IMG/VR virus record: IMGVR_UViG_2802429218_000003
Span: 1 to 27,801 of that record
From: a virus
Lineage: Duplodnaviria > Heunggongvirae > Uroviricota > Caudoviricetes
Direction: 5' to 3' (one strand)
Length of the DNA: 27,801 nucleotides
Shown here in pieces: positions 1,078 to 27,019 of the stretch (positions within the stretch are counted from its first letter, which is position 1; every line of letters starts with the position of its first letter). The notes under the pieces were generated by a model, which saw only the letters and a list, made by a program, of their open reading frames with translations, made no database searches and was not told where the DNA came from. The translations under genes and the position numbers were made by a program.

Positions 1078-3653
1078 CGTCCACCTCCGGAGAACAGACC
1101 ACCATCGCGCATCTGCCCGGTCACAACATCCATTGCCGCCTTACGGGCTACGTCATAAACAGCTTTCAGTGCCTGTGGCCCTATCTGACCGTTCGTGCCG
1201 TCGTTGTTAATCACCACATGGTTATTCTGCTCAAACGTCCCGGACGCCTGCGAGCGGCTGTCCGCCATGCTGCCAGGTGTACCGACATAACCGCCGGTGG
1301 CATAGCCGCGCATCAGCCGGTAGAGATTTCCCACGCCAATCCGGCTGGTTGCCTCCTTCGTGAAGACAAACTCACCACGGTGAACAATCCCCGCTGGCTC
1401 ATATTTGCCGCCGGTTCCCGTAAATCCCCCGGTCGCAAAATAGAATTTCGCCGCAGCTGCCTGAATGGCTGTACCGCCTGACGCTGATGCGCCGCCACCA
1501 ACAGCCCCGCCAATGGCGCTGCCGATACTCCCGACAATCCCCACCATTGCCTGCTTAAGCAGAATTTCTGTCATCATGGACAGCACGGAACGGGTGAAGC
1601 TGCGCCAGTTCTGTTCACTGCCGGTCAGCATCGCCGCCATATTCTGCGCAATACCATCAAAGGTCTGCGTGGCTGCACTTTTAACCTGCGACATACTGTC
1701 CGTGGCGCTCTCTTCCCACTCACTCCAGCCGGACTTGAGGCCTGCCATCCAGCTCCCGCGAAGCTGGTCTTCAGCCGCCCAGGTCTTTTTCTGCTCTGAC
1801 ATGACGTTATTCAGCGCCAGCGAATTATCGCCATACTGTTCCTTCAGGCGCTGTTCTGTGGCTTCCCGCGCTGCCTGCCGGTCAGTAAGCCCCCGGTTTT
1901 TCGCCTCAATGGCTGCCCGTTTTGCCCGTTGTTGCTGTGCGAACTTATCCGCCTGCTGCGCCAGCGCATTCAGGTGCTCCTGATACGTGACCTTATCGCC
2001 AAGTACAGCCAGCTGGCGTTTGTACTCCAGCGTCTCATCTTTATGCGCCAGCAGGGATTTCTCCTGTGCGGACAGCTGGCGACGTTGTGCCGCCTCCTCC
2101 AGTACAGCGAACTGACTCTCCGCCTTCCACAAATCCCGGCGCTGCTGGCTGATTTTCTCATTCGCTCCGGCATGCTTCTCCAGCATCCGGAGTTCTGCCT
2201 GAAGCGTCAGCAGGGCAGCATGAGCACTGTCTTCCTGGCGATCGCCTGCAGACACTTTCACGCCGGACTGCTTCGGCTTTTTCAGCGTCGCTTCATAATC
2301 CTTTTTCGCTGCCGCCATCAGCGTGTTGTAATCTGCCTGCAGGATTTTCCCGTCTTTCAGTGCCTTATTCAGTTCTTCCTGACGGGCGGTATATTTCTCC
2401 AGCGGCGTCTGCAGGCGTTCGTAAGCCTTCTGCGCCTCTTCGGTATATTTCAGCCGTGATGCCTCAGACTCGGCCCAGTCCTTTGCTGCCATCTCTCTGG
2501 CCTTTTCAAGATCGGCCTGCAACGTGGCGGCTGAAAGCCCAAGTTGCGCATTCGCTCTGTCCTCCCATGCTCCCCGGAGATTGGCAAGAAATGCTGAGGT
2601 TTTACCGCGCCGGTGGCTCCGGCTCTGATACCACTGCCATTTTTTGTCCGCCTCATCAAAAGCCTTTTCTGCTTTCTCCAGCATTCCCTGGGCAGTGTCC
2701 GGGCGACCAATATCCAGCACCGAATCCCACATGGATTTGAATGCCCGTGCTGTCCTGTCTGCCCAGGTCTCCAGCGTGCCCATGTTCTCTTTCAGGCGGC
2801 GGGTCTGGTCATCAAACCCTTTCGTTGCGGCCTCGTTCGCCGCCTGCAATGCCCCGGCTTCATCTCCGGAACGCTGCAACTGAGCAACATACGCAATCTG
2901 CTCCGCCGTCACGTTATGGAACTGACGTGCCATCGCTGTCAGTCCCGACGTCGGGTCTGTGGTCAGCTTCCCGAAGGCTTCAGCGACCTTGTCCACCTCC
3001 ACGCCGGATGCAGAGGAGAAACGCGCCACACTCTGGCTGATCGCCTCAAACTGCTCACCACCACGCACACCGGCATTCACCAGCGCCGTCAGTGACTCGC
3101 TGGTCTGGTTAAACGTCAGCCCTGCCGCCTGCCCGGCTCTGGACAGGACCAGCATGCGATCTGCCGTCAGACCCGACTGATTGCCGGAAAGGACCAGCGT
3201 TTTGTTGAAATCGGACAGGGTTGAGTTGCCCTGATACCAGGCATACGCCAGCGCACCGGTCGCCACCGCCAGCGAGGTGGCCCCCACCATCGGCAGGGTG
3301 ATCGCACCGGCAAGCCCCCTGAACATGGGGATCATCCCGCCGAAGGAGTCCTTCACCTGACCACCCTGTTGCAGCAGGATCAGCCACGGACTTTGCCCGC
3401 CTGCAAGCTGCGTGGCCACGTCGGTGAACTGTGCAGGCAGCATACGCATGGCGGCTTTATACTGCCCGACGGAAATCCCCGCTTTCTGTGCAGCCAGCGC
3501 CTGTCGGCTCAGCGACTGTTCAACGACTGCCGCTGTTTTTTTCGCATCACTTTCCGTACCGGAAAAATGACGCCTGACTCTGGCCATCTGCTCGTCAAAT
3601 CTGGCCGCATCCAGACTTAAATCAACGACCAGATCGCCTACCGGTTCAGCCAT
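1074..3653 (-). CDS. H: Tail tape measure protein H
   Basis: 859-aa ORF with the lambda gpH N-terminus (MAEPVGDLVVDLSLDAARFDEQ), coiled-coil-rich middle and glycine-rich C-terminal region; lambda gpH is 853 aa. Confidence 0.95.
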   Translation of the reverse strand: MAEPVGDLVVDLSLDAARFDEQMARVRRHFSGTESDAKKTAAVVEQSLSRQALAAQKAGISVGQYKAAMRMLPAQFTDVATQLAGGQSPWLILLQQGGQVKDSFGGMIPMFRGLAGAITLPMVGATSLAVATGALAYAWYQGNSTLSDFNKTLVLSGNQSGLTADRMLVLSRAGQAAGLTFNQTSESLTALVNAGVRGGEQFEAISQSVARFSSASGVEVDKVAEAFGKLTTDPTSGLTAMARQFHNVTAEQIAYVAQLQRSGDEAGALQAANEAATKGFDDQTRRLKENMGTLETWADRTARAFKSMWDSVLDIGRPDTAQGMLEKAEKAFDEADKKWQWYQSRSHRRGKTSAFLANLRGAWEDRANAQLGLSAATLQADLEKAREMAAKDWAESEASRLKYTEEAQKAYERLQTPLEKYTARQEELNKALKDGKILQADYNTLMAAAKKDYEATLKKPKQSGVKVSAGDRQEDSAHAALLTLQAELRMLEKHAGANEKISQQRRDLWKAESQFAVLEEAAQRRQLSAQEKSLLAHKDETLEYKRQLAVLGDKVTYQEHLNALAQQADKFAQQQRAKRAAIEAKNRGLTDRQAAREATEQRLKEQYGDNSLALNNVMSEQKKTWAAEDQLRGSWMAGLKSGWSEWEESATDSMSQVKSAATQTFDGIAQNMAAMLTGSEQNWRSFTRSVLSMMTEILLKQAMVGIVGSIGSAIGGAVGGGASASGGTAIQAAAAKFYFATGGFTGTGGKYEPAGIVHRGEFVFTKEATSRIGVGNLYRLMRGYATGGYVGTPGSMADSRSQASGTFEQNNHVVINNDGTNGQIGPQALKAVYDVARKAAMDVVTGQMRDGGLFSGGGR

Positions 3654-4080
3654 ACCGGACTCCTCCTGCGATCCCTTCTGATACTGTCATCAGCATTACG
3701 TCATCCTCCGTCATGTCCGCCACATCCGGGGAAGCGGGGATAACTTCTTTCCCGTCCGGGCCAAAACGAACGCCTCCGGCAAGCCCTGCCGCTTTCTGCA
3801 TCAGCACATCATCTTCAGGCTCTTCGTCAGCCTCGCGCCGGTTCAGCAGACTGAAATCCAGCGGATGCATATCCGGATCGCTGAAAAACAGGCTGAGCAC
3901 GGTGTATGTCAGCCCGGAAAAGTGCATATCCAGCAGAACATCATGAAAATAATGGGTACTGTAAAAGCGGTGCCAGTCGGCATACTCCGTGGATGACATC
4001 CCGGCAAGCATGGCGCGCCAGTCGGGTCGCCCCATCTCACGCGCCAGTTTCAGGGCAAAACTCAGCTCACCGTCGAACAC
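3646..4080 (-). CDS. T: Tail assembly chaperone T frame (expressed as G-T fusion by -1 frameshift)
   Basis: 144-aa ORF in the -1 frame relative to G, overlapping the G 3' end; lambda arrangement with slippery heptamer at 4071-4077. Confidence 0.8.
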   Translation of the reverse strand: MFDGELSFALKLAREMGRPDWRAMLAGMSSTEYADWHRFYSTHYFHDVLLDMHFSGLTYTVLSLFFSDPDMHPLDFSLLNRREADEEPEDDVLMQKAAGLAGGVRFGPDGKEVIPASPDVADMTEDDVMLMTVSEGIAGGVRYG

Positions 4081-4484
4081 TTTCCCGCAGAAACAGGCTC
4101 TGCAGGCCCGGCGTCATCTGCCTGTTCAGGTGCATCATTCACAACAAACTCAGACATACCGGACAGACGCATTACCACATTTTCAGCCTGAGCAATTGCC
4201 TCTGTGGGCCAGGTGGTAAGCACTTCCTGCTCAATTTGTTTAACGGCTTCATTCATGGATGGCATCTTTGTCTTCTGCGGATGGTTATGCCACAGGGACA
4301 TCGCCACCAGAAAAGCACCGGTTCTGACGAGATCTTCCACGCTCACCTGTCGATTGACACTGGAGCCCGCCTGTTCTGCCTGTCGTTTCAGCAGGGCGAG
4401 ATGCTCAATACGCTGCAGGGCTGACAGTTCAGAAAGCGTGACGCTCACACCGTTATATTCAAATGATTCGGTTTTCAGGAACAT
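4062..4484 (-). CDS. G: Tail assembly chaperone G
   Basis: 140-aa ORF, same length as lambda gpG, located between V and T. Confidence 0.9.
   Translation of the reverse strand: MFLKTESFEYNGVSVTLSELSALQRIEHLALLKRQAEQAGSSVNRQVSVEDLVRTGAFLVAMSLWHNHPQKTKMPSMNEAVKQIEQEVLTTWPTEAIAQAENVVMRLSGMSEFVVNDAPEQADDAGPAEPVSAGKCSTVS
4071..4077 (-). other. Programmed -1 ribosomal frameshift slippery heptamer GGGAAAG (G to G-T fusion)
   Basis: Minus-strand sequence GGGAAAG sits near the end of the G reading frame where the T frame opens, as in lambda. Confidence 0.7.
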
Positions 4485-4499
4485 CGCTGACTCTCCGGA

Positions 4500-5240
4500 T
4501 TAACTGTCGGTGACGGTGATTTCTGCAACCGCAGCAAGTTCACCATTACCGGATACAACCGGAATGTTGACCTTGCCTGCAGCAACGCCGTTCACGGTGA
4601 TGGTCATACCGCTGACCGACACGGTGGCTTTTGTTTTATCCGCAGACACCGCACGGAAGCTCTTGTCGGTTGCGCCCTCCGGCTGGAATGCCACGGTCAG
4701 CGTGGTGCTCTGCCCTTTCACCACCGAAGTGCTGGCAGGCGTCACGGTCATGCCGGTTGCCGCTGTTACCGTGCTGCGATCTTCTGCCATCGACGGACGC
4801 CCCACGTTGGTGACTTTCACCGTGCGGGTGATCACTTCCTTCGCCGTCACCGCCTTACCGATACTGCTGACCCAGCCGCGGAACACATCGACCGTGCCGT
4901 TCGGGAAGCGGATTTTATAGGCACGGGTATCCCCTTCATTAAACCACGCCAGCAGCGCCTGCTGCCCCTGCTCTCCGGGCATCCACGCCAGCGTGAAGCT
5001 GGTATCTCCGGCGGATTTCTGACCCTGCCCGGTCGCGGTCCAGTCCGCATCTTCATCATCGAGATAACTGTCGTCACAGGACTCAGCGGTCAGTTCGCCG
5101 GGCGTCAGGTCTTTAACTTTTGCCAGACGCAACCAGTCAACGTCTGAAAGCGGATTCGCATAAGGGTTACCGCTCCCCTTATAAACCCACAGGGTGGTCC
5201 CGGCACCTTTCACCGGCATTGTAGGATTTGGTACAGGCAT
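4500..5240 (-). CDS. V: Major tail tube protein V
   Basis: Track ORF is 256 aa; the internal Met at 5238-5240 gives 246 aa beginning [10 protein letters not shown] (as lambda gpV) and has a GAGGA Shine-Dalgarno upstream. Confidence 0.9.
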
Positions 5241-5247
5241 AGCGTCC

Positions 5248-5643
5248 TCACATTTCATAGGTAATGACATAAGTCAGATCGGCTGAACTCCACAGGCCCG
5301 CATCATCGTCGCGCCGGTAGTCATAGCCACTGGCCACCATACTGGTGATCAAATCTGACAGTGCCGGGACATCGCTCATCACCGGATAAATCCGGGACTC
5401 CATCCACGCATCCAGCTCTGAATCCGGCACCTGAGCAGGCAGGAAAACTTCAATATGCAACTCCGCCTGCCAGGTATCGCTGTCCAGCTCTTCGCCCGTG
5501 TATTCAGCGCCGGTGAGATAAACGGCAATTGCCGGAAAATCCGCCTCATCAAAAACAGCGGGGCGACCATCAAAAAGCGTCGCCCCGGTGTCATGCTTCT
5601 CCAGTGCATCCAGTACGGCTGCACGGAGTTCAGTATGTTTCAT
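5248..5643 (-). CDS. U: Tail terminator protein U
   Basis: 131-aa ORF, same length as lambda gpU; synteny Z-U-V. Confidence 0.9.
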
Positions 5644-7031: not shown

Positions 7032-8057
7032 TTACGCCAGTTGTACGGACACGAACTCATCAGGGTCAGCCAGCAGCATCAGCGGTGCTGACTGAATCAT
7101 AGTGAACTCACGCGCCGGATCGCCGGATGTCTTCCAGTTTTTCGGATAACGAGGAGACGCATTAATACCCTCACTCAATGCATCCGCATCCTGAATACAA
7201 CCATAGGTGCGCAGACCGCGTGCCTGAGTGTTCCCCAGTACCATCGTGTTGTCCGGCAGAAAGTTCTTTTTGACGCCGTTTTCCACGTACTGTCCGGAAT
7301 ACACGACGATGGCCACATCGCCATACATCCCCTTATAGGACACCGCTTTACCCAGGTCTTTTACCGCTGTCTCCAGCTCGGAATGAGAGCCGCGACGGGT
7401 ATCCAGCTTCTCCCTGACGGCTTTGAAGGAACGGAACAGCGCCCAGCCTTTCGGATCAAACACGATGATATTCACCACACCGCTGGCGTTCAGCGCGTAG
7501 GCTTCGATATCGTCGGTCGGGTCATACGTGGACTTGTCGCGATTGCTCCACTCCGTGCCGCCGGACTGTGTGATGTTATTCGCCTCACTGCGGCCCATAT
7601 CCACCTCAACCGGATCGAAGGCTTCACCGGTCATGGTGTATTTGCCCTTAAGCACGGCAGAAACGGCCTGCATCTCTTCGACCTGAGCAATGGCAAGCTC
7701 CTCGTCTCGCATGTTCTGCATGATGATGCGACGGCGGCGGTAAGCCGGGTCCGCCAGATTCTGTGGATCTTCATCCGGCAGGCGACGCAGGGTCATCTGC
7801 GGATTCACCTCATGCTTGGGCTTGACATATCCCGGTGTAAATTCAGAGGTGGAGCCGCCACGGGAACGGATAACCTCACCGGAAACAATCGGCGAAACGT
7901 ACAGCGCCATGTTTACCAGTCCCGGAATTTGTGAGAGATAGACTTTCTCCGTAGTGAAGGGATAGCTCTCACGGAAAAAGAGACGCAGAAACAGCGGATC
8001 AAACTTAAATTTCTGCTCATTTGCCGCCAGCAGCTGGGCGGTTGTGTACATCGACAT
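7032..8057 (-). CDS. E: Major capsid protein E
   Basis: Internal Met at 8055-8057 gives 341 aa starting MSMYTTAQLLAANEQ, the lambda gpE length and N-terminus. Confidence 0.9.
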   Translation of the reverse strand: MSMYTTAQLLAANEQKFKFDPLFLRLFFRESYPFTTEKVYLSQIPGLVNMALYVSPIVSGEVIRSRGGSTSEFTPGYVKPKHEVNPQMTLRRLPDEDPQNLADPAYRRRRIIMQNMRDEELAIAQVEEMQAVSAVLKGKYTMTGEAFDPVEVDMGRSEANNITQSGGTEWSNRDKSTYDPTDDIEAYALNASGVVNIIVFDPKGWALFRSFKAVREKLDTRRGSHSELETAVKDLGKAVSYKGMYGDVAIVVYSGQYVENGVKKNFLPDNTMVLGNTQARGLRTYGCIQDADALSEGINASPRYPKNWKTSGDPAREFTMIQSAPLMLLADPDEFVSVQLA

Positions 8058-8112
8058 AAAAAAATCCCGTAAAAAAAGCCGCACATGCGGCCTTTAGTGA
8101 TGAAGGGTAAAG

Positions 8113-13481: not shown

Positions 13482-14001
13482 TCAGCAACCCCGGTATCAG
13501 TTCATCCAGCGCGGCTGCTTTGTTCATGGCTTTGATGATATCCCGTTTCAGGAAATCAACATGTCGGTTTTCCAGTTCCGGAAAACGCCGCTGCACCGAC
13601 AGGGGGATCCCGTCGAGAATACTGGCAATTTCACCTGCGATCCGCGACAGCACGAAAGTACAGAATGCGGTTTCCACCACTTCAGCTGAGTCTCTGGCAT
13701 TCTTCAGTTCCTGTGCGTCGGCCTGCGCACGCGTAAGTCGATGGCGTTCGTACTCAATAGTCCCTGGCTGGAGATCTGCCTCGCTGGCCTGGCGCAGTTC
13801 TTCAACCTCCCGGCGCAGCTTTTCGTTCTCAATTTCAGCATCCCTTTCGGCATACCATTTTATAACGGCGGCAGAGTCATAAAGCACCTCATTACCCTTG
13901 CCACCGCCTCGCAGAACGGGCATTCCCTGTTCCTGCCAGTTCTGAATGGTACGGATACTCGCACCGAAAATGTCAGCCAGCTGCTTTTTGTTGACTTCCA
14001 T
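13456..14001 (-). CDS. Nu1: Terminase small subunit Nu1
   Basis: 181-aa ORF; sequence (MEVNKKQLADIFGASIRTIQNWQEQGMPVLRGGGKGNEVLYD...) matches recalled lambda gpNu1. Confidence 0.95.
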
Positions 14002-17454: not shown

Positions 17455-17530
17455 TGGTGCTGGTTAACGGACTTGAACCGCTACCCATTCGCTTACAAGG
17501 CGACTGCTCTACCATTGGAGCTAAACCAGC
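17455..17530 (-). tRNA. tRNA-like gene, anticodon UGU (Thr-like)
   Basis: 76-nt minus-strand sequence folds as a cloverleaf: acceptor stem GCTGGTT/AACCAGC (7 bp), D-stem GCTC/GAGC, anticodon loop CTTGTAA, T-arm AGCGG-TTCAAGT-CCGTT, 3' ACCA. Confidence 0.65.
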
Positions 17531-17535
17531 ATATT

Positions 17536-17610
17536 TGGCGGGACAGCGTGGACTCGAACCACGATAAGAAGGTTAACAGCCTTCCGTAATGACCTTTATA
17601 CGACTGACCC
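17536..17610 (-). tRNA. tRNA-like gene, anticodon GUU (Asn-like); possibly degenerate
   Basis: 75-nt minus-strand sequence: T-arm CGTGG-TTCGAGT-CCACG, anticodon stem GAAGG/CCTTC with loop CTGTTAA, 3' GCCA; acceptor stem has one T-T mismatch and the D-stem is weak. Confidence 0.5.
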
Positions 17611-17884: not shown

Positions 17885-18508
17885 CTAACGTGTGACCGCA
17901 TTCAATATGTTGTCTGCGATTGACTCTTCTTTGTGGCATTGCACCACCAGAGCGTCATACAGCGGCTTAACAGTGCGTGACCAGGTGGGTTGAGTAAGGT
18001 TTGGGATTAGCATCGTTACAGCGCGATATGCGGCGCTTGCTGGCATTCTTGAATAGCCGACACCTTTGCATCTTCCGCATTCTTTCTCAACAACTCTCCC
18101 CCACAGCTCTGTTTTGGCAATATCAACCGCACGGCCTGTACCGTGGCAATCTCTGCATCTTGCGCCCGGCGTCGCAGCACTACGGCAATAATCCGCATAA
18201 GCGAATGTTGCGAGAACTTGCAGTACCTTTGCCTTAGTATTTCCTTCAAGCTTTGCCACACCACGGTATTTCCCCGATACCTTGTGTGCAAATTGCATCA
18301 GATAGTTGATAGCCTTTTGTTTGTCGTTCTGGCTGAGTTCGTGCTTACCACAGAATGCAGCCATTCCGAATCCGGCTTGTGATTGCGCCATCCCCATAGC
18401 AGCCATCACATCAGTACCGGAAAGAGAGTCAGAGGCCGTAGCCCGTGGTGAGTCGCTCATCATCGGGCTTTTTGGCGAATGATATTTAGCTACGCTTTCG
18501 AGTCTCAT
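17885..18508 (-). CDS. Q: Late gene antiterminator Q
   Basis: 207-aa ORF matching recalled lambda Q in length and sequence. Confidence 0.95.
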
Positions 18509-24627: not shown

Positions 24628-25335
24628 ATGGTTCAGAATGAAAAAGTGCGCAAAGAATTCGCCCAGCGGCTAGCGCAAGCCTGTAAAGAAGCTGGTCTTG
24701 ATGAACATGGTAGGGGAATGGCCATAGCCCGTGCCCTTTCTCTTTCGTCCAAAGGCGTTAGCAAATGGTTTAATGCTGAGTCTTTACCGCGTCAGGAAAA
24801 AATGAATGCGCTTGCGAAATTTCTAAACGTTGATGTTGTTTGGCTTCAGCACGGCACTTCGTTAAATGGAGCGAATGATGAAGATACTCTTTCATTTGTT
24901 GGCAAATTTAAAAAAGGGTTAGTGCGCGTGGTTGGTGAGGCAATTCTTGGTGTTGATGGTGCCATCGAGATGACCGAAGAGCGCGATGGGTGGCTCAAAA
25001 TTTATAGCGATGATCCAGATGCCTTTGGCCTTCGTGTGAAAGGAGACAGCATGTGGCCCAGAATAAAATCAGGAGAATATGTACTCATTGAGCCTAACAC
25101 CAAAGTATTCCCGGGTGATGAGGTGTTTGTCAGAACCATCGAAGGACACAACATGATCAAGGTTCTTGGCTATGACAGAGATGGAGAATACCAATTTACA
25201 AGCATCAACCAGGACCACAGGCCAATAACGTTGCCTTATCATCAAGTAGCAAAGGTGGAGTATGTGGCTGGTATTCTGAAGCAATCTCGCCATCTGGATG
25301 ACATTGAGGCAAGGGAATGGCTGAAAAGTTCGTGA
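24628..25335 (+). CDS. cI: CI-type prophage repressor (N-terminal HTH, C-terminal LexA-like S24 peptidase domain)
   Basis: 235-aa ORF divergent from cro; HTH-like N-terminus; C-terminal domain with the GDSM serine motif (VKGDSMWPRI) typical of LexA/CI autocleaving repressors; sequence is not lambda CI. Confidence 0.9.
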   Translation: MVQNEKVRKEFAQRLAQACKEAGLDEHGRGMAIARALSLSSKGVSKWFNAESLPRQEKMNALAKFLNVDVVWLQHGTSLNGANDEDTLSFVGKFKKGLVRVVGEAILGVDGAIEMTEERDGWLKIYSDDPDAFGLRVKGDSMWPRIKSGEYVLIEPNTKVFPGDEVFVRTIEGHNMIKVLGYDRDGEYQFTSINQDHRPITLPYHQVAKVEYVAGILKQSRHLDDIEAREWLKSS

Positions 25336-25440
25336 CTTCATCGTCACATAGCTGATAGTCAGTGGCCTAAAAAGACGTTTGGGTCGTGAATTAGTTTTCA
25401 AACATCTATGTTTGGTGCCTATATCTAGGAAAAATAGGTT

Positions 25441-26178
25441 TTGCAAAATAACTATCTACAGGTTATAGCCTATACTAGGCGCATGAATGATGGTATGACC
25501 AAGCCATTCCTTTGTACTTGCCAAGATGGGCTGGCTTACATAGTTAAAGGAAGGCCAAAACTTCGCCAAAAAGAGCTTGTAGCAGAATTTATTGCCGCCC
25601 ATCTAGCAAAACAGATAGGTCTGCCATGTCCTGATTTTTGCATTGTTGATGTTGATTGTGGGTTAATCGAGTTCATGCCTGACTTGCGTGGTGAGCTTTT
25701 GCCTGGACCTGCATTTGCTACCCGCTTTATTGAAAATGCATCAATCATAAATATTCAACAAGCAAGGAGTGCTGTAACCATTCAGGAACAAAAGAAAATA
25801 TTCTTCTTTGACCGCTGGATAAACAACGCAGACAGATCATTGACTGACATTGGTGGTAATGTAAACATAATTTACGATGCATTTAACAATAGGTATTACC
25901 TGATTGACCATAATCTGGCGTTCGCGCAGGATACAAGATCTCATGAGTATGATGTCCATGTGTATTCGCCGAATGGAAGACCGTGGGTTTTCGACATGCT
26001 CGACGAACCCGAACTGATGGATCTTGCAAATGATGCTATTAGTTCAGTAGAGGAGAAATTTAATCAGCTTCCGGATGAGTGGTTTTCAACCGATGAAGAA
26101 CGAAGGCTAATGCTGAATGAGATAATGAACTGCCTGAACAGAGTGCACGACAGAGAGTTTTGGAGTAACATCAAATGA
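25441..26178 (+). CDS. HipA-like kinase-domain protein (standalone C-terminal-domain type; start codon uncertain)
   Basis: 245-aa track ORF starting at TTG 25441 (AGGA 10-13 nt upstream); alternative ATG starts at 25483 and 25495. Segment ELVAEFIAAHLAKQIGLPCPDFCIV resembles recalled E. coli HipA (EYYCLLLAKELGLNVPDAEII); FFFDRWINNADRS aligns with the HipA catalytic loop VFQWLIGATDGHAKN but has Ser in place of His. Confidence 0.7.
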   Translation: MQNNYLQVIAYTRRMNDGMTKPFLCTCQDGLAYIVKGRPKLRQKELVAEFIAAHLAKQIGLPCPDFCIVDVDCGLIEFMPDLRGELLPGPAFATRFIENASIINIQQARSAVTIQEQKKIFFFDRWINNADRSLTDIGGNVNIIYDAFNNRYYLIDHNLAFAQDTRSHEYDVHVYSPNGRPWVFDMLDEPELMDLANDAISSVEEKFNQLPDEWFSTDEERRLMLNEIMNCLNRVHDREFWSNIK

Positions 26179-26993
26179 CCACACCATGCCTGTATAGCAT
26201 TATTAGATATGCTCCATATGCAGAAACCGAAGAGTTTGCTAATGTCGGTGTGGTTCTTTGTGCCCCGAAATTAGGTCAGTTTTGCTTTAAACTGACCCAA
26301 AGCAACAATGCCAGAGTAAAAAACTTTTTTCAGGATGAAATCATTTTCCCTCACGCGAGGGATGCAATTGCAAGAGAGCTAAAATTTGCTCAAGAGCAAA
26401 GTTATAAATTCAATTCTCCTGAAAAATTAGCAAATTTTTTCAACTACTTAATTGGCAGGAAAGAGTCAATCATTCATTTTAGCTCTGCAAGAGTTGCAAT
26501 GTCTGCTTGTCCACAAGACATGATGCACATACTTTTTAATAAGTTTGTACATCATTCAGAAATAACAAAAGAATCTCGTGAGACCATCCTGACGAGAGAG
26601 CTTAAGCATCGTTTCTCTCATTATAACGAACTCAGGAACGCCTTTAAAAAGGAAATGCTTGGTGGTGAACTAACGCGGTTTTCTGTACCATTTGTTGCCC
26701 GTCACGATGGAGAGATTTTATGTGCTATCAAACCCCTAACATTCACTCAGGACAAGCCTGAGAAAATGTTGGAGCACTGCGACTCTTGGACGGCCAAAAT
26801 TCTGCGCGCCGCCAGTGAAAAAATTTTATCTGTCTCAAATGTGTTATTTACGATAGATGCACCTCGCCAGCCAAGTGAGCTTGAGGTAAAAGCGATGAGT
26901 GAGATTCGTAAGACATTCGATGAGAAAGGTATAAATCACGTAGAGCATCAGGATGAAGCATCAATAGTAAAGTTTGCTAAGCAAGCAATTTAA
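26175..26993 (+). CDS. Hypothetical protein, partner of the HipA-like gene (possibly DUF3037-like)
   Basis: 272-aa ORF whose ATG (26175-26177) overlaps the upstream TGA (ATGA coupling); the N-terminal motif YSIIRYAPYAETEEFANVGVVL is tentatively recalled as characteristic of DUF3037; no catalytic motif recognised. Confidence 0.7.
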   Translation: MTTPCLYSIIRYAPYAETEEFANVGVVLCAPKLGQFCFKLTQSNNARVKNFFQDEIIFPHARDAIARELKFAQEQSYKFNSPEKLANFFNYLIGRKESIIHFSSARVAMSACPQDMMHILFNKFVHHSEITKESRETILTRELKHRFSHYNELRNAFKKEMLGGELTRFSVPFVARHDGEILCAIKPLTFTQDKPEKMLEHCDSWTAKILRAASEKILSVSNVLFTIDAPRQPSELEVKAMSEIRKTFDEKGINHVEHQDEASIVKFAKQAI

Positions 26994-27019
26994 CCCGGCC
27001 ACCGAGCCGGGTTTTCTTT
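26992..27019 (+). terminator. Intrinsic terminator ending the cI-cassette transcript (tImm-like)
   Basis: 7-bp stem ACCCGGC/GCCGGGT with 6-nt loop followed by TTTTCTTTT, immediately after the 26993 stop. Confidence 0.7.

What the first reader, a model, noticed from the sequence alone, without database searches (positions are those of the whole stretch)
25441..26178. HipA-like kinase domain with a non-canonical catalytic loop and an ambiguous start codon
The protein resembles the HipA C-terminal kinase core: ELVAEFIAAHLAKQIGLPCPDFCIV against recalled HipA EYYCLLLAKELGLNVPDAEII, and FFFDRWINNADRS against VFQWLIGATDGHAKN. It is only about 230-245 aa, so it lacks the HipA N-terminal subdomain, and the loop His is replaced by Ser (DRS rather than DxH), so it may be an atypical kinase or a pseudokinase. 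The track ORF starts at TTG 25441; ATG starts at 25483 or 25495 are alternatives.
Basis: partly seen in the sequence, partly recalled or inferred. Interest (0 to 1): 0.7.

Follow-up and report, generated by a model that had tools for sequence, protein, structure and literature searches.

The report
Prophage HipAD defence kinase gene
The gene encodes a small HipA-like kinase which, with the gene after it, forms a known two-gene anti-phage defence module (HipAD / DS-6 / PDC-M66) beside the repressor gene of a lambda-like prophage, so it is real but already described.

Summary
The ORF, both quoted motifs and the three candidate starts are exactly as described. The 245-aa protein is a full-length member of Pfam PF20613 HipA_2 (E 2.6e-75). 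Its gene overlaps by 4 bp a downstream DUF3037 gene. The pair hits PADLOC PDC-M66A/B and is 44% and 49% identical, end to end, to DS-6A/DS-6B (HipA/HipD), an experimentally validated E. coli prophage defence system.

The "DRS" loop is not a defect. D131, R132 and N142 are invariant in 204 family members, and position 133 is mostly T or S. The loop matches the NxDR...GNxN...IDxxLAF pattern of type II PI4-kinase. The homologous Asp (D139 in DS-6A) is required for defence. The pseudokinase reading is therefore rejected.

The start is almost certainly TTG 25441. It is the only start upstream of a conserved first beta-strand, and a Yersinia homologue has ATG at that position. RefSeq's ATG 25495 start is probably truncated.

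The module occupies the lambda rexAB slot: cI, hipA, hipD, terminator, then N.

Verdict: real, correctly read as a HipA-like kinase, already known. Substrate and trigger remain unknown here.

The parts
25441..26178 (+). hipA-like kinase gene (HipA_2 family, 245 aa, TTG start); toxin/effector of the HipAD-type module
25427..25432 (+). Shine-Dalgarno-like AGGAAA, 8 nt upstream of TTG 25441
   Evidence: Read from the sequence. The Yersinia homologue has AAGGAAA upstream of an ATG at the homologous position.
25546..25548 (+). codon for Lys36, the predicted ATP-anchoring lysine (YIVK)
   Evidence: K in 196 of 197 aligned family members. Aligned to HipA K181 by hhalign.
25825..25866 (+). catalytic loop N129-A-D131-R132-S-L-T-D-I-G-G-N140-V-N142
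   Evidence: D131, R132 and N142 in 204/204; N129 and N140 in 202/204; position 133 is T 89, S 57, N 15. Same pattern as the PI4KIIalpha loop NTDRGNDN, with a 6-residue insert. D131 corresponds to DS-6A D139.
25903..25914 (+). I155-D156-H157-N158, the predicted metal-binding Asp motif (DFG equivalent)
   Evidence: D156 in 203/204 and H157 in 198/204. It follows the two strands 143-146 and 151-154 in the model. Compare PI4KIIalpha AAIDNGLAF.
26175..26993 (+). hipD-like gene (272 aa: N-terminal DUF3037 plus a C-terminal alpha/beta domain); presumed antitoxin/regulator. Its ATG overlaps the kinase stop (ATGA)
   Evidence: Pfam PF11236 E 4.5e-19. PADLOC PDC-M66B E 8.9e-15. 49% identical over the full length to DS-6B, WP_000210934.1. 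The same 4-bp overlap occurs in Yersinia and in a 33%-identical metagenomic pair.
26992..27013 (+). intrinsic-terminator-like hairpin (8 bp, 6 G-C) followed by TTCTTTTCCT, right after the hipD stop
   Evidence: Pattern scan only. It coincides with the end of the stretch shared with Salmonella phage SW-37.
25393..27015 (+). extent of the exchangeable hipAD cassette, shared at 85.5% with Salmonella phage SW-37 while the flanks differ
   Evidence: blastn of the window against L002, megablast and the alignment.
24628..25335 (+). context: cI-type repressor (HTH_3 + Peptidase_S24) immediately upstream on the same strand; probable source of transcription in the lysogen
   Evidence: Pfam. RefSeq calls it 'LexA family transcriptional regulator'; cro, cII, O and P lie on the opposite strand and N lies downstream.

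Best explanation
Window 25441-26178 encodes the kinase (HipA) of a HipAD-type two-gene anti-phage module, also called DS-6 or PADLOC candidate PDC-M66. The module is carried as a cargo cassette in the immunity region of a lambdoid E. coli prophage, at the place where lambda carries rexAB.

The kinase is a minimal, single-domain atypical Ser/Thr-type kinase of Pfam family HipA_2. It has a complete catalytic set: Lys36, Glu49, Asp131/Arg132 and Asn140/Asn142 in the catalytic loop, and Asp156 for metal binding. Translation most likely starts at TTG 25441. The downstream gene hipD (26175-26993, DUF3037) is translationally coupled to it.

Inferred from tested homologues: HipD keeps the kinase inactive in the uninfected lysogen. 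Infection by another phage relieves this inhibition. The kinase then phosphorylates an unidentified target and stops phage production, probably at the cost of the infected cell.

Inferred from gene order: the pair is transcribed with cI in the lysogen and ends at the hairpin at 26992-27013.

Shown here: family membership, gene architecture, conservation of catalytic residues, fold, and genomic slot. Shown by others on homologues: defence, dependence on the catalytic Asp, and toxicity when the DUF3037 gene is deleted. Not known here: substrate, trigger, and activity of this particular allele.
For: - Family: Pfam HipA_2 E 2.6e-75 for the kinase and DUF3037 E 4.5e-19 for the partner.
- PADLOC PDC-M66A and PDC-M66B hit the two proteins.
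- Full-length 44% and 49% identity to DS-6A and DS-6B; those sequences come from Table S8 of PMC13092281.
- DS-6 lowered Bas1 plating by 5.2 log10; its D139A mutant lowered it by only 0.9 log10 (Table S7). D139 corresponds to D131 here.
- PMC13092281 states that DS-6 was independently found and renamed HipAD (Brenes & Laub 2025), and proposes a TA-like mechanism.
- In the Retron-Sda1 operon, deleting the HipA-like kinase abolished defence and deleting the DUF3037 gene was toxic (PMC12548924).
- Phage PhiR5_1 (PV340545.1) annotates 'HipA toxin' and 'HipD antitoxin' directly after cI.
- A Yersinia prophage has the same arrangement. A 33%-identical chromosomal pair keeps the 4-bp overlap.
- Catalytic residues are invariant in 204 family members.
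- RefSeq labels the identical genes 'HipA family kinase' and 'DUF3037 domain-containing protein'.
- Start codon: the conserved strand beta1 (residues 6-14) lies upstream of both ATGs. Most family representatives begin 0-4 residues before it. The Yersinia homologue has ATG at the TTG position and no Met at positions 15 or 19. SW-37 also has TTG there, with 3 synonymous and 1 non-synonymous change in codons 1-14.
Against: - This allele has not been tested. It is only 44% and 49% identical to the validated pair, and it is rare: 2 of 5426 complete E. coli genomes, against 284 for the DS-6 allele.
- The TA-like/abortive mechanism is a hypothesis even for DS-6. The primary HipAD paper (PubMed 40409266) is not in the held library, so its mechanistic data were not seen.
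- No promoter-like site was found between cI and the kinase. A weak hairpin (25362-25387) lies there, so co-transcription with cI is only inferred.
- Sequence-only links to canonical HipA are weak. phmmer and hmmsearch against PDB sequences found nothing relevant. hhalign gave 14% probability against one HipA sequence and 46% against a shallow HipA alignment.
- RefSeq chose ATG 25495 as the start.
Confidence: 0.85

Rival explanations
1. It is an ordinary HipA-type persistence or addiction toxin. Like HipA, HipT or HipH it phosphorylates an aminoacyl-tRNA synthetase, with HipD as its antitoxin. It stabilises the prophage or causes dormancy and has no real role in phage defence.
For: The kinase fold is related to HipA and HipT. 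Deleting the DUF3037 gene is toxic in the Sda1 system, which is toxin-antitoxin behaviour. The SW-37 copy has a frameshifted kinase beside an intact hipD, a decay pattern typical of TA pairs.
Against: Two homologous systems gave measured phage defence that depended on the kinase. There is no HipA_C or HipA_N Pfam match and no HipB or HipS partner. The catalytic loop and the nearest structures (CtkA, PI4KII) differ from HipA. The location is the rexAB slot of prophages. TA behaviour and defence are not mutually exclusive.
Confidence: 0.08
2. It is a pseudokinase or scaffold. The DRS loop, which lacks the HipA His, and the missing N-terminal subdomain make it catalytically dead.
For: Ser133 replaces HipA His311 in the aligned loop. 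The loop carries a 6-residue insert with the lowest confidence in the model: the block of residues 131-140 has mean pLDDT 78.
Against: K36, E49, D131, R132, N140, N142 and D156 are invariant or nearly so in 204 members; such conservation is not expected in a dead enzyme. The NxDR, GNxN and IDxxLAF motifs match an active lipid kinase, PI4KIIalpha. D139A in DS-6A, which corresponds to D131, removes defence.
Confidence: 0.02
3. It is an active kinase whose physiological substrate is not a protein. The substrate would be a lipid, sugar, nucleotide or nucleic-acid end, as for its structural neighbours PI4KII, MavQ, Fam20B xylosylkinase and CotH-like enzymes. Defence would then come from modifying a small molecule or a phage component.
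Confidence: 0.05

Closest known systems
HipAD / DS-6 (E. coli prophage defence system; DS-6A WP_000389051.1 and DS-6B WP_000210934.1; annotated HipA toxin / HipD antitoxin in phage PhiR5_1, PV340545.1) = PADLOC candidate PDC-M66
   Same: Same two Pfam families in the same order, with the same 4-bp gene overlap. The lengths are similar (245/272 aa here, 249/275 aa there). Identity is 44% and 49% over the full length. The catalytic Asp is conserved. The position is the same: immediately after cI in a lambdoid prophage.
   Different: It is a diverged allele, found in only 2 of 5426 complete E. coli genomes against 284 for DS-6. It starts with TTG instead of ATG, follows a different repressor, and is untested.
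Canonical HipA / HipT / HipH toxins (Pfam HipA_C PF07804; HipBA and HipBST systems)
   Different: There is no HipA_C or HipA_N Pfam match and no N-terminal subdomain (245 aa against 440 aa). The loop is NADRS...GNVN rather than DGHAKN. The partner is a downstream DUF3037 protein, not an upstream HTH HipB or a HipS. The substrate is unknown.
Type II phosphatidylinositol 4-kinase (PI4KIIalpha, PDB 4hnd/4pla) and H. pylori CtkA (3akj)
   Different: No sequence-level significance: there is no PF00454 hit and identity in the structural alignments is 10-16%. There is a 6-residue insert between DR and GNxN. The protein is much smaller, has no membrane-association elements, and comes from a bacterial prophage.
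Lambda RexAB and other cargo genes placed next to cI
   Same: Same genomic slot and presumably the same expression logic: downstream of cI on the same strand, ended by a terminator before the N gene. The presumed role, protecting the lysogen from other phages, is also the same.
   Different: The proteins are unrelated. RexAB is a sensor plus membrane ion channel, not a kinase pair.

Membership tests
Pfam HipA_2 (PF20613) kinases | Full-length match to the family profile above the gathering score | tested here: met
   253.2 bits against a cut-off of 27; E 2.6e-75; residues 11-244 on profile positions 4-240 of 240.
Pfam HipA_2 (PF20613) kinases | Family-invariant catalytic residues present (K36, E49, D124, N129, D131, R132, N140, N142, D156, H157, H173) | tested here: met
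   All are present in the window protein. Each is conserved in at least 196 of the 204 aligned members.
HipAD / DS-6 / PDC-M66 two-gene defence system | HipA_2 kinase gene immediately followed, on the same strand, by a DUF3037 gene | tested here: met
   Kinase 25441-26178 and DUF3037 gene 26175-26993, with an ATGA overlap. Homologues have the same architecture.
HipAD / DS-6 / PDC-M66 two-gene defence system | Both proteins match the PADLOC PDC-M66A/B models and are homologous to the validated DS-6A/B proteins | tested here: met
   PDC-M66A E 9.4e-19 and PDC-M66B E 8.9e-15. BLASTP gives 44% (E 4e-73) and 49% (E 8e-103) identity over the full length.
HipAD / DS-6 / PDC-M66 two-gene defence system | Catalytic Asp required for defence (D139 in DS-6A) is conserved | tested here: met
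   D139 aligns with D131. Published data: wild type 5.18 log10 and D139A 0.88 log10 reduction of Bas1 plating.
HipAD / DS-6 / PDC-M66 two-gene defence system | Confers protection against phage; the kinase is toxic without HipD | not testable with these tools
   Known only for homologues (PMC13092281, PMC12548924). Testing this allele needs plaque and toxicity assays.
Canonical HipA toxins (HipBA/HipBST) | HipA_C (PF07804) domain match | tested here: not met
   No PF07804 hit at E<=1. A profile of the family finds no PDB HipA sequence at E<=10.
Canonical HipA toxins (HipBA/HipBST) | N-terminal HipA subdomain (PF13657/PF07805), or a separate HipS | tested here: not met
   The 245-aa protein is covered end to end by the kinase-core profile, and no HipS-like gene is adjacent.
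Canonical HipA toxins (HipBA/HipBST) | Catalytic loop D-x-H-x-K-N | tested here: not met
   The loop is N-A-D-R-S-L-T-D-I-G-G-N-V-N. S133 sits at the His position.
Canonical HipA toxins (HipBA/HipBST) | Upstream HTH antitoxin HipB that represses the operon | tested here: not met
   The upstream gene is the phage cI repressor, and the partner is the downstream DUF3037 protein.
Canonical HipA toxins (HipBA/HipBST) | HipA-type atypical kinase fold | tested here: met
   [not shown]
PI3/PI4-kinase family (PF00454) | Sequence-profile match to the PI3_PI4_kinase domain | tested here: not met
   No hit at E<=1. Only fold and short-motif similarity were found.

The most novel reading that the evidence does not exclude
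HipA_2 kinases may be a separate lineage rather than 'small HipAs'. They would be closer to CtkA and type II PI4-kinases, with a PI4KII-type NxDR...GNxN catalytic loop. Their target would not be an aminoacyl-tRNA synthetase and might not be a protein. HipD would not be a passive antitoxin. It would be a sensor that uses a nuclease-dead, restriction-endonuclease-like C-terminal domain to detect phage DNA, or a DNA state, and then release the kinase. That would be a new way of coupling nucleic-acid sensing to phosphorylation in bacterial immunity.
Probability: 0.2. Interest if true: 0.6.

Novelty: already known. Interest (0 to 1): 0.25.

Why it matters
The practical value is in annotation. Without the partner gene and the prophage context, this gene would be filed as a hypothetical or HipA-like protein. 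In fact it marks a defence module carried by a prophage.

Small additions from this work:
- The RefSeq start (ATG 25495) probably removes a conserved beta-strand. TTG 25441 should be used when the gene is cloned.
- The DR[ST] loop is the family signature and is PI4KII-like.
- The cassette boundaries (about 25393-27015) are defined by comparison with a Salmonella phage.
- HipD's C-terminal domain looks like a degenerate PD-(D/E)xK fold.

The open biology is the substrate, the trigger and how HipD controls the kinase. That applies to the whole HipAD family, and this locus does not raise it newly.

Tried and rejected
- phmmer of the protein and hmmsearch of a 28-sequence family profile against all PDB sequences gave no relevant hit. 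Sequence alone does not link it to any solved kinase.
- hhalign of the family against a single E. coli HipA sequence recovered only residues 47-72 against 201-226, at 14% probability.
- My third protein search, meant to build a HipA family profile, listed only close HipA relatives (73% identity or more). The resulting profile-profile test was shallow: 46% probability, E 2e-4. Its alignment after the catalytic Asp is unreliable: it pairs the non-conserved D146 with HipA D332, whereas strand order in the model points to D156.
- NCBIfam gave only sub-threshold noise.
- A literature search for 'HipAD' returned unrelated hip-adduction and GWAS papers.
- The primary HipAD paper (PubMed 40409266) is not held. 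Searches for 'HipD' found nothing, and 'PDC-M66' found only the retron paper.
- No sigma-70-like promoter was found in the 105-nt cI-hipA spacer. An alignment of four upstream regions showed no conserved element. I therefore dropped the idea of a dedicated promoter.
- Pfam scans of 30 HipD homologues gave no family for the C-terminal domain.
- Rfam found no RNA family near the locus, so there is no sign of a retron ncRNA.
- Pseudokinase reading: rejected on conservation and on the published D139A result.
- I first assumed the window was E. coli CFSAN018748. It is 100% identical across the cassette but only 97-98% identical elsewhere, and it lacks that strain's IS66 insertion.

Full report
**1. 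Observation**

It spans 25441-26178 on the + strand and encodes 245 aa. It starts with TTG, directly after an in-frame TAG (25435-25437) and a GTT codon. In-frame ATGs lie at 25483 (codon 15) and 25495 (codon 19). The two quoted peptides are residues 45-69 and 121-133.

**2. What the protein is**

- It matches Pfam PF20613 'HipA_2, HipA-like kinase' end to end: E 2.6e-75, residues 11-244 on profile positions 4-240 of 240. It does not match HipA_C, HipA_N or PI3_PI4_kinase.
- It belongs to PHROG 3162, of unknown function.
- The family is large. A profile search of 1.84 billion cluster representatives found 4243 at E<=1e-3 and 318 at E<=1e-30. Nearly all of the 150 best hits listed are 230-250 aa.
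- An AlphaFold2 model built on 28 homologues is confident: pLDDT 90.9, pTM 0.90.
- Foldseek ranks PI4KIIalpha first (E 2e-6), then CtkA, HipT and HipA.

The protein therefore has the atypical kinase fold of the HipA / CtkA / PI4KII group.

Sequence-only links to HipA are weak. phmmer and hmmsearch against PDB sequences gave nothing relevant. A 204-sequence family alignment against a shallow HipA alignment gave 46% probability and E 2e-4, pairing K36 with K181, D131 with D309 and S133 with H311.

**3. The 'non-canonical' loop**

I aligned 204 family members: the query, 55 hits of the first search and 148 representatives.

| Residue | Conservation |
|---|---|
| D131, R132, N142 | 204/204 |
| N129, N140 | 202/204 |
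| K36 | 196/197 |
| E49 | 201/201 |
| D156 | 203/204 |
| Position 133 | T 89, S 57, N 15; His not among the six commonest |

'DR[ST]' is therefore the family signature, not a lesion. It resembles the loop of the top structural hit. I checked the PI4KIIalpha sequence against PDB 4hnd:

- PI4KIIalpha: [21 protein letters not shown] ... AAIDNGLAF
- This protein: FFFDRWINNADRSLTDIGGNVNIIY ... LIDHNLAF

The NxDR, GNxN and IDxxLAF elements are the same. This protein has a 6-residue insert between DR and GNxN. That insert lies in the least confident block of the model (residues 131-140, mean pLDDT 78).

The pseudokinase alternative is rejected. The decisive point is in section 5: the homologous Asp is required for defence.

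**4. Start codon**

- The model's first strand is residues 6-14. That segment is conserved down to homologues of about 30% identity.
- Most family representatives begin 0-4 residues before it: profile positions 5-7 map to protein residues 1-3.
- TTG 25441 is the only start codon upstream of that strand.
- A 48%-identical Yersinia homologue has ATG at the same position, preceded by AAGGAAA, and has no Met at positions 15 or 19.
- The copy in Salmonella phage SW-37 also has TTG there. Codons 1-14 differ from the window by 3 synonymous and 1 non-synonymous change.
- An AGGAAA lies 8 nt upstream of the TTG.
- RefSeq/PGAP starts the identical gene at ATG 25495, giving a 227-aa protein (WP_089631820.1). 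That product would lack strand beta1 and is probably mis-annotated.

**5. The gene is half of a known system**

The next gene (26175-26993) overlaps the kinase stop by ATGA and encodes a 272-aa DUF3037 protein (E 4.5e-19). The two proteins hit PADLOC candidate models PDC-M66A (E 9.4e-19) and PDC-M66B (E 8.9e-15).

Published evidence on homologues:

- DefensePredictor (PMC13092281) validated 'DS-6', a HipA-family kinase plus a DUF3037 protein. The authors say it was found independently and renamed HipAD (Brenes & Laub 2025, PubMed 40409266). A catalytic-residue mutant loses defence, and they propose a HipAB-like toxin-antitoxin mechanism.
- Its Table S8 gives the sequences. The window proteins are 44% (E 4e-73) and 49% (E 8e-103) identical to them over the full length.
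- The mutated residue, D139, aligns with D131.
- Table S7 shows Bas1 plating reduced by 5.18 log10 with the wild type and 0.88 log10 with D139A.
- In the Retron-Sda1 operon, deleting the HipA-like kinase abolished defence, deleting the DUF3037 gene was toxic, and the retron parts were dispensable (PMC12548924).

**6. Context**

The window is a lambdoid prophage. It is 100% identical to E. coli CFSAN018748 across the cassette and 97-98% identical elsewhere. The gene order is:

- ren, P, O, cII and cro on the - strand;
- cI (24628-25335), the kinase, the DUF3037 gene, a terminator-like hairpin (26992-27013), then N, on the + strand.

This is the place where lambda carries rexAB. The same slot is used in three other elements:

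- phage PhiR5_1, where the genes are annotated 'HipA toxin' and 'HipD antitoxin';
- a Yersinia prophage;
- Salmonella phage SW-37.

In each case the module follows a different repressor. The stretch shared with SW-37 runs from 48 nt upstream of the TTG to the end of the terminator (25393-27015, 85.5% identity). This fits an exchangeable cassette. A 33%-identical pair in a metagenomic chromosome, next to uvrB, keeps the 4-bp overlap, so the pairing does not depend on phages.

This allele is in 2 of 5426 complete E. coli genomes. The DS-6 allele is in 284.

**7. Mechanism**

Shown here: family membership, an intact catalytic set, the fold, the coupled partner gene, and the slot.

Shown by others on homologues: defence, dependence on the catalytic Asp, and toxicity without the DUF3037 protein.

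Inferred:
- HipD holds the kinase inactive in the lysogen.
- Infection releases the kinase.
- Phosphorylation of an unknown target blocks phage production.
- The pair is transcribed with cI. I found no promoter-like site in the 105-nt spacer.

The primary HipAD paper is not in the held library, so its mechanistic data are not included.

**8. HipD in passing**

The C-terminal domain has the order alpha-beta-beta-beta-alpha-beta. Invariant P172 and K186 sit where 'PD' and '(D/E)xK' would be, but the acidic residues are replaced by F173 and A184. This suggests a nuclease-dead DNA-binding module. It fits the weak HHpred DUF1829 hit and the AF3 DNA contact reported for DS-6B. HMMER finds no Pfam family for this domain.

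**9. Verdict**

However, the object is already in Pfam, PADLOC, RefSeq and two experimental papers. It is a diverged, untested allele of a known defence system. Interest is low to moderate. The open questions (substrate, trigger, HipD's role) belong to the family as a whole.

Noticed in passing
[not shown]
   Followed up: partly
window 25441-25497: RefSeq/PGAP annotates the identical gene from ATG 25495 (227 aa, WP_089631820.1). This omits a conserved first beta-strand, so the annotation is probably truncated.
   Followed up: yes
L002 (Salmonella phage SW-37, CP051275.1), about 2655-2660; corresponds to window gene position 128: The SW-37 kinase gene has a 1-nt deletion in an A-run, which frameshifts it at codon 43, while hipD is intact. 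Truncated 167-aa kinases also occur as separate clusters in Salmonella and Enterobacter (P0018, P0022, P0023). This is either toxin decay or a homopolymer sequencing error.
   Followed up: partly
window 17455-17610 (- strand): Two tRNA genes, tRNA-Thr (TGT) and tRNA-Asn (GTT), lie between the Q-like antiterminator gene (17885-18508) and the lysis genes. This is common in Stx-type lambdoid phages.
   Followed up: partly
window 25362-25387: A weak terminator-like hairpin (10 pairs, only 3 G-C, poor T tail) lies between the cI stop and the start of the cassette shared with SW-37 (25393). It could attenuate read-through from cI or mark the recombination boundary.
   Followed up: no
window 13544-13552, compared with NZ_CP028192.1 positions 2563-5262: The closely related prophage in E. 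coli CFSAN018748 has an IS66-family element (ISCro1) inserted in the small terminase gene and several frameshifted head genes. The window lacks the IS and has an intact 350-aa ORF at 7032-8084, the region that corresponds to that strain's frameshifted major capsid gene. The window therefore comes from a different, probably less decayed copy.
   Followed up: partly
window 25492-25515 (kinase residues 18-25): The loop between the first two strands, G18-x-T20-x-P22-F-L-C25, is highly conserved: G 180, T/S 177, P 188 and C 191 of 204. It occupies the place of the Gly-rich loop where HipA and HipT autophosphorylate. T20 is a candidate regulatory phosphosite, but this is speculation.
   Followed up: no
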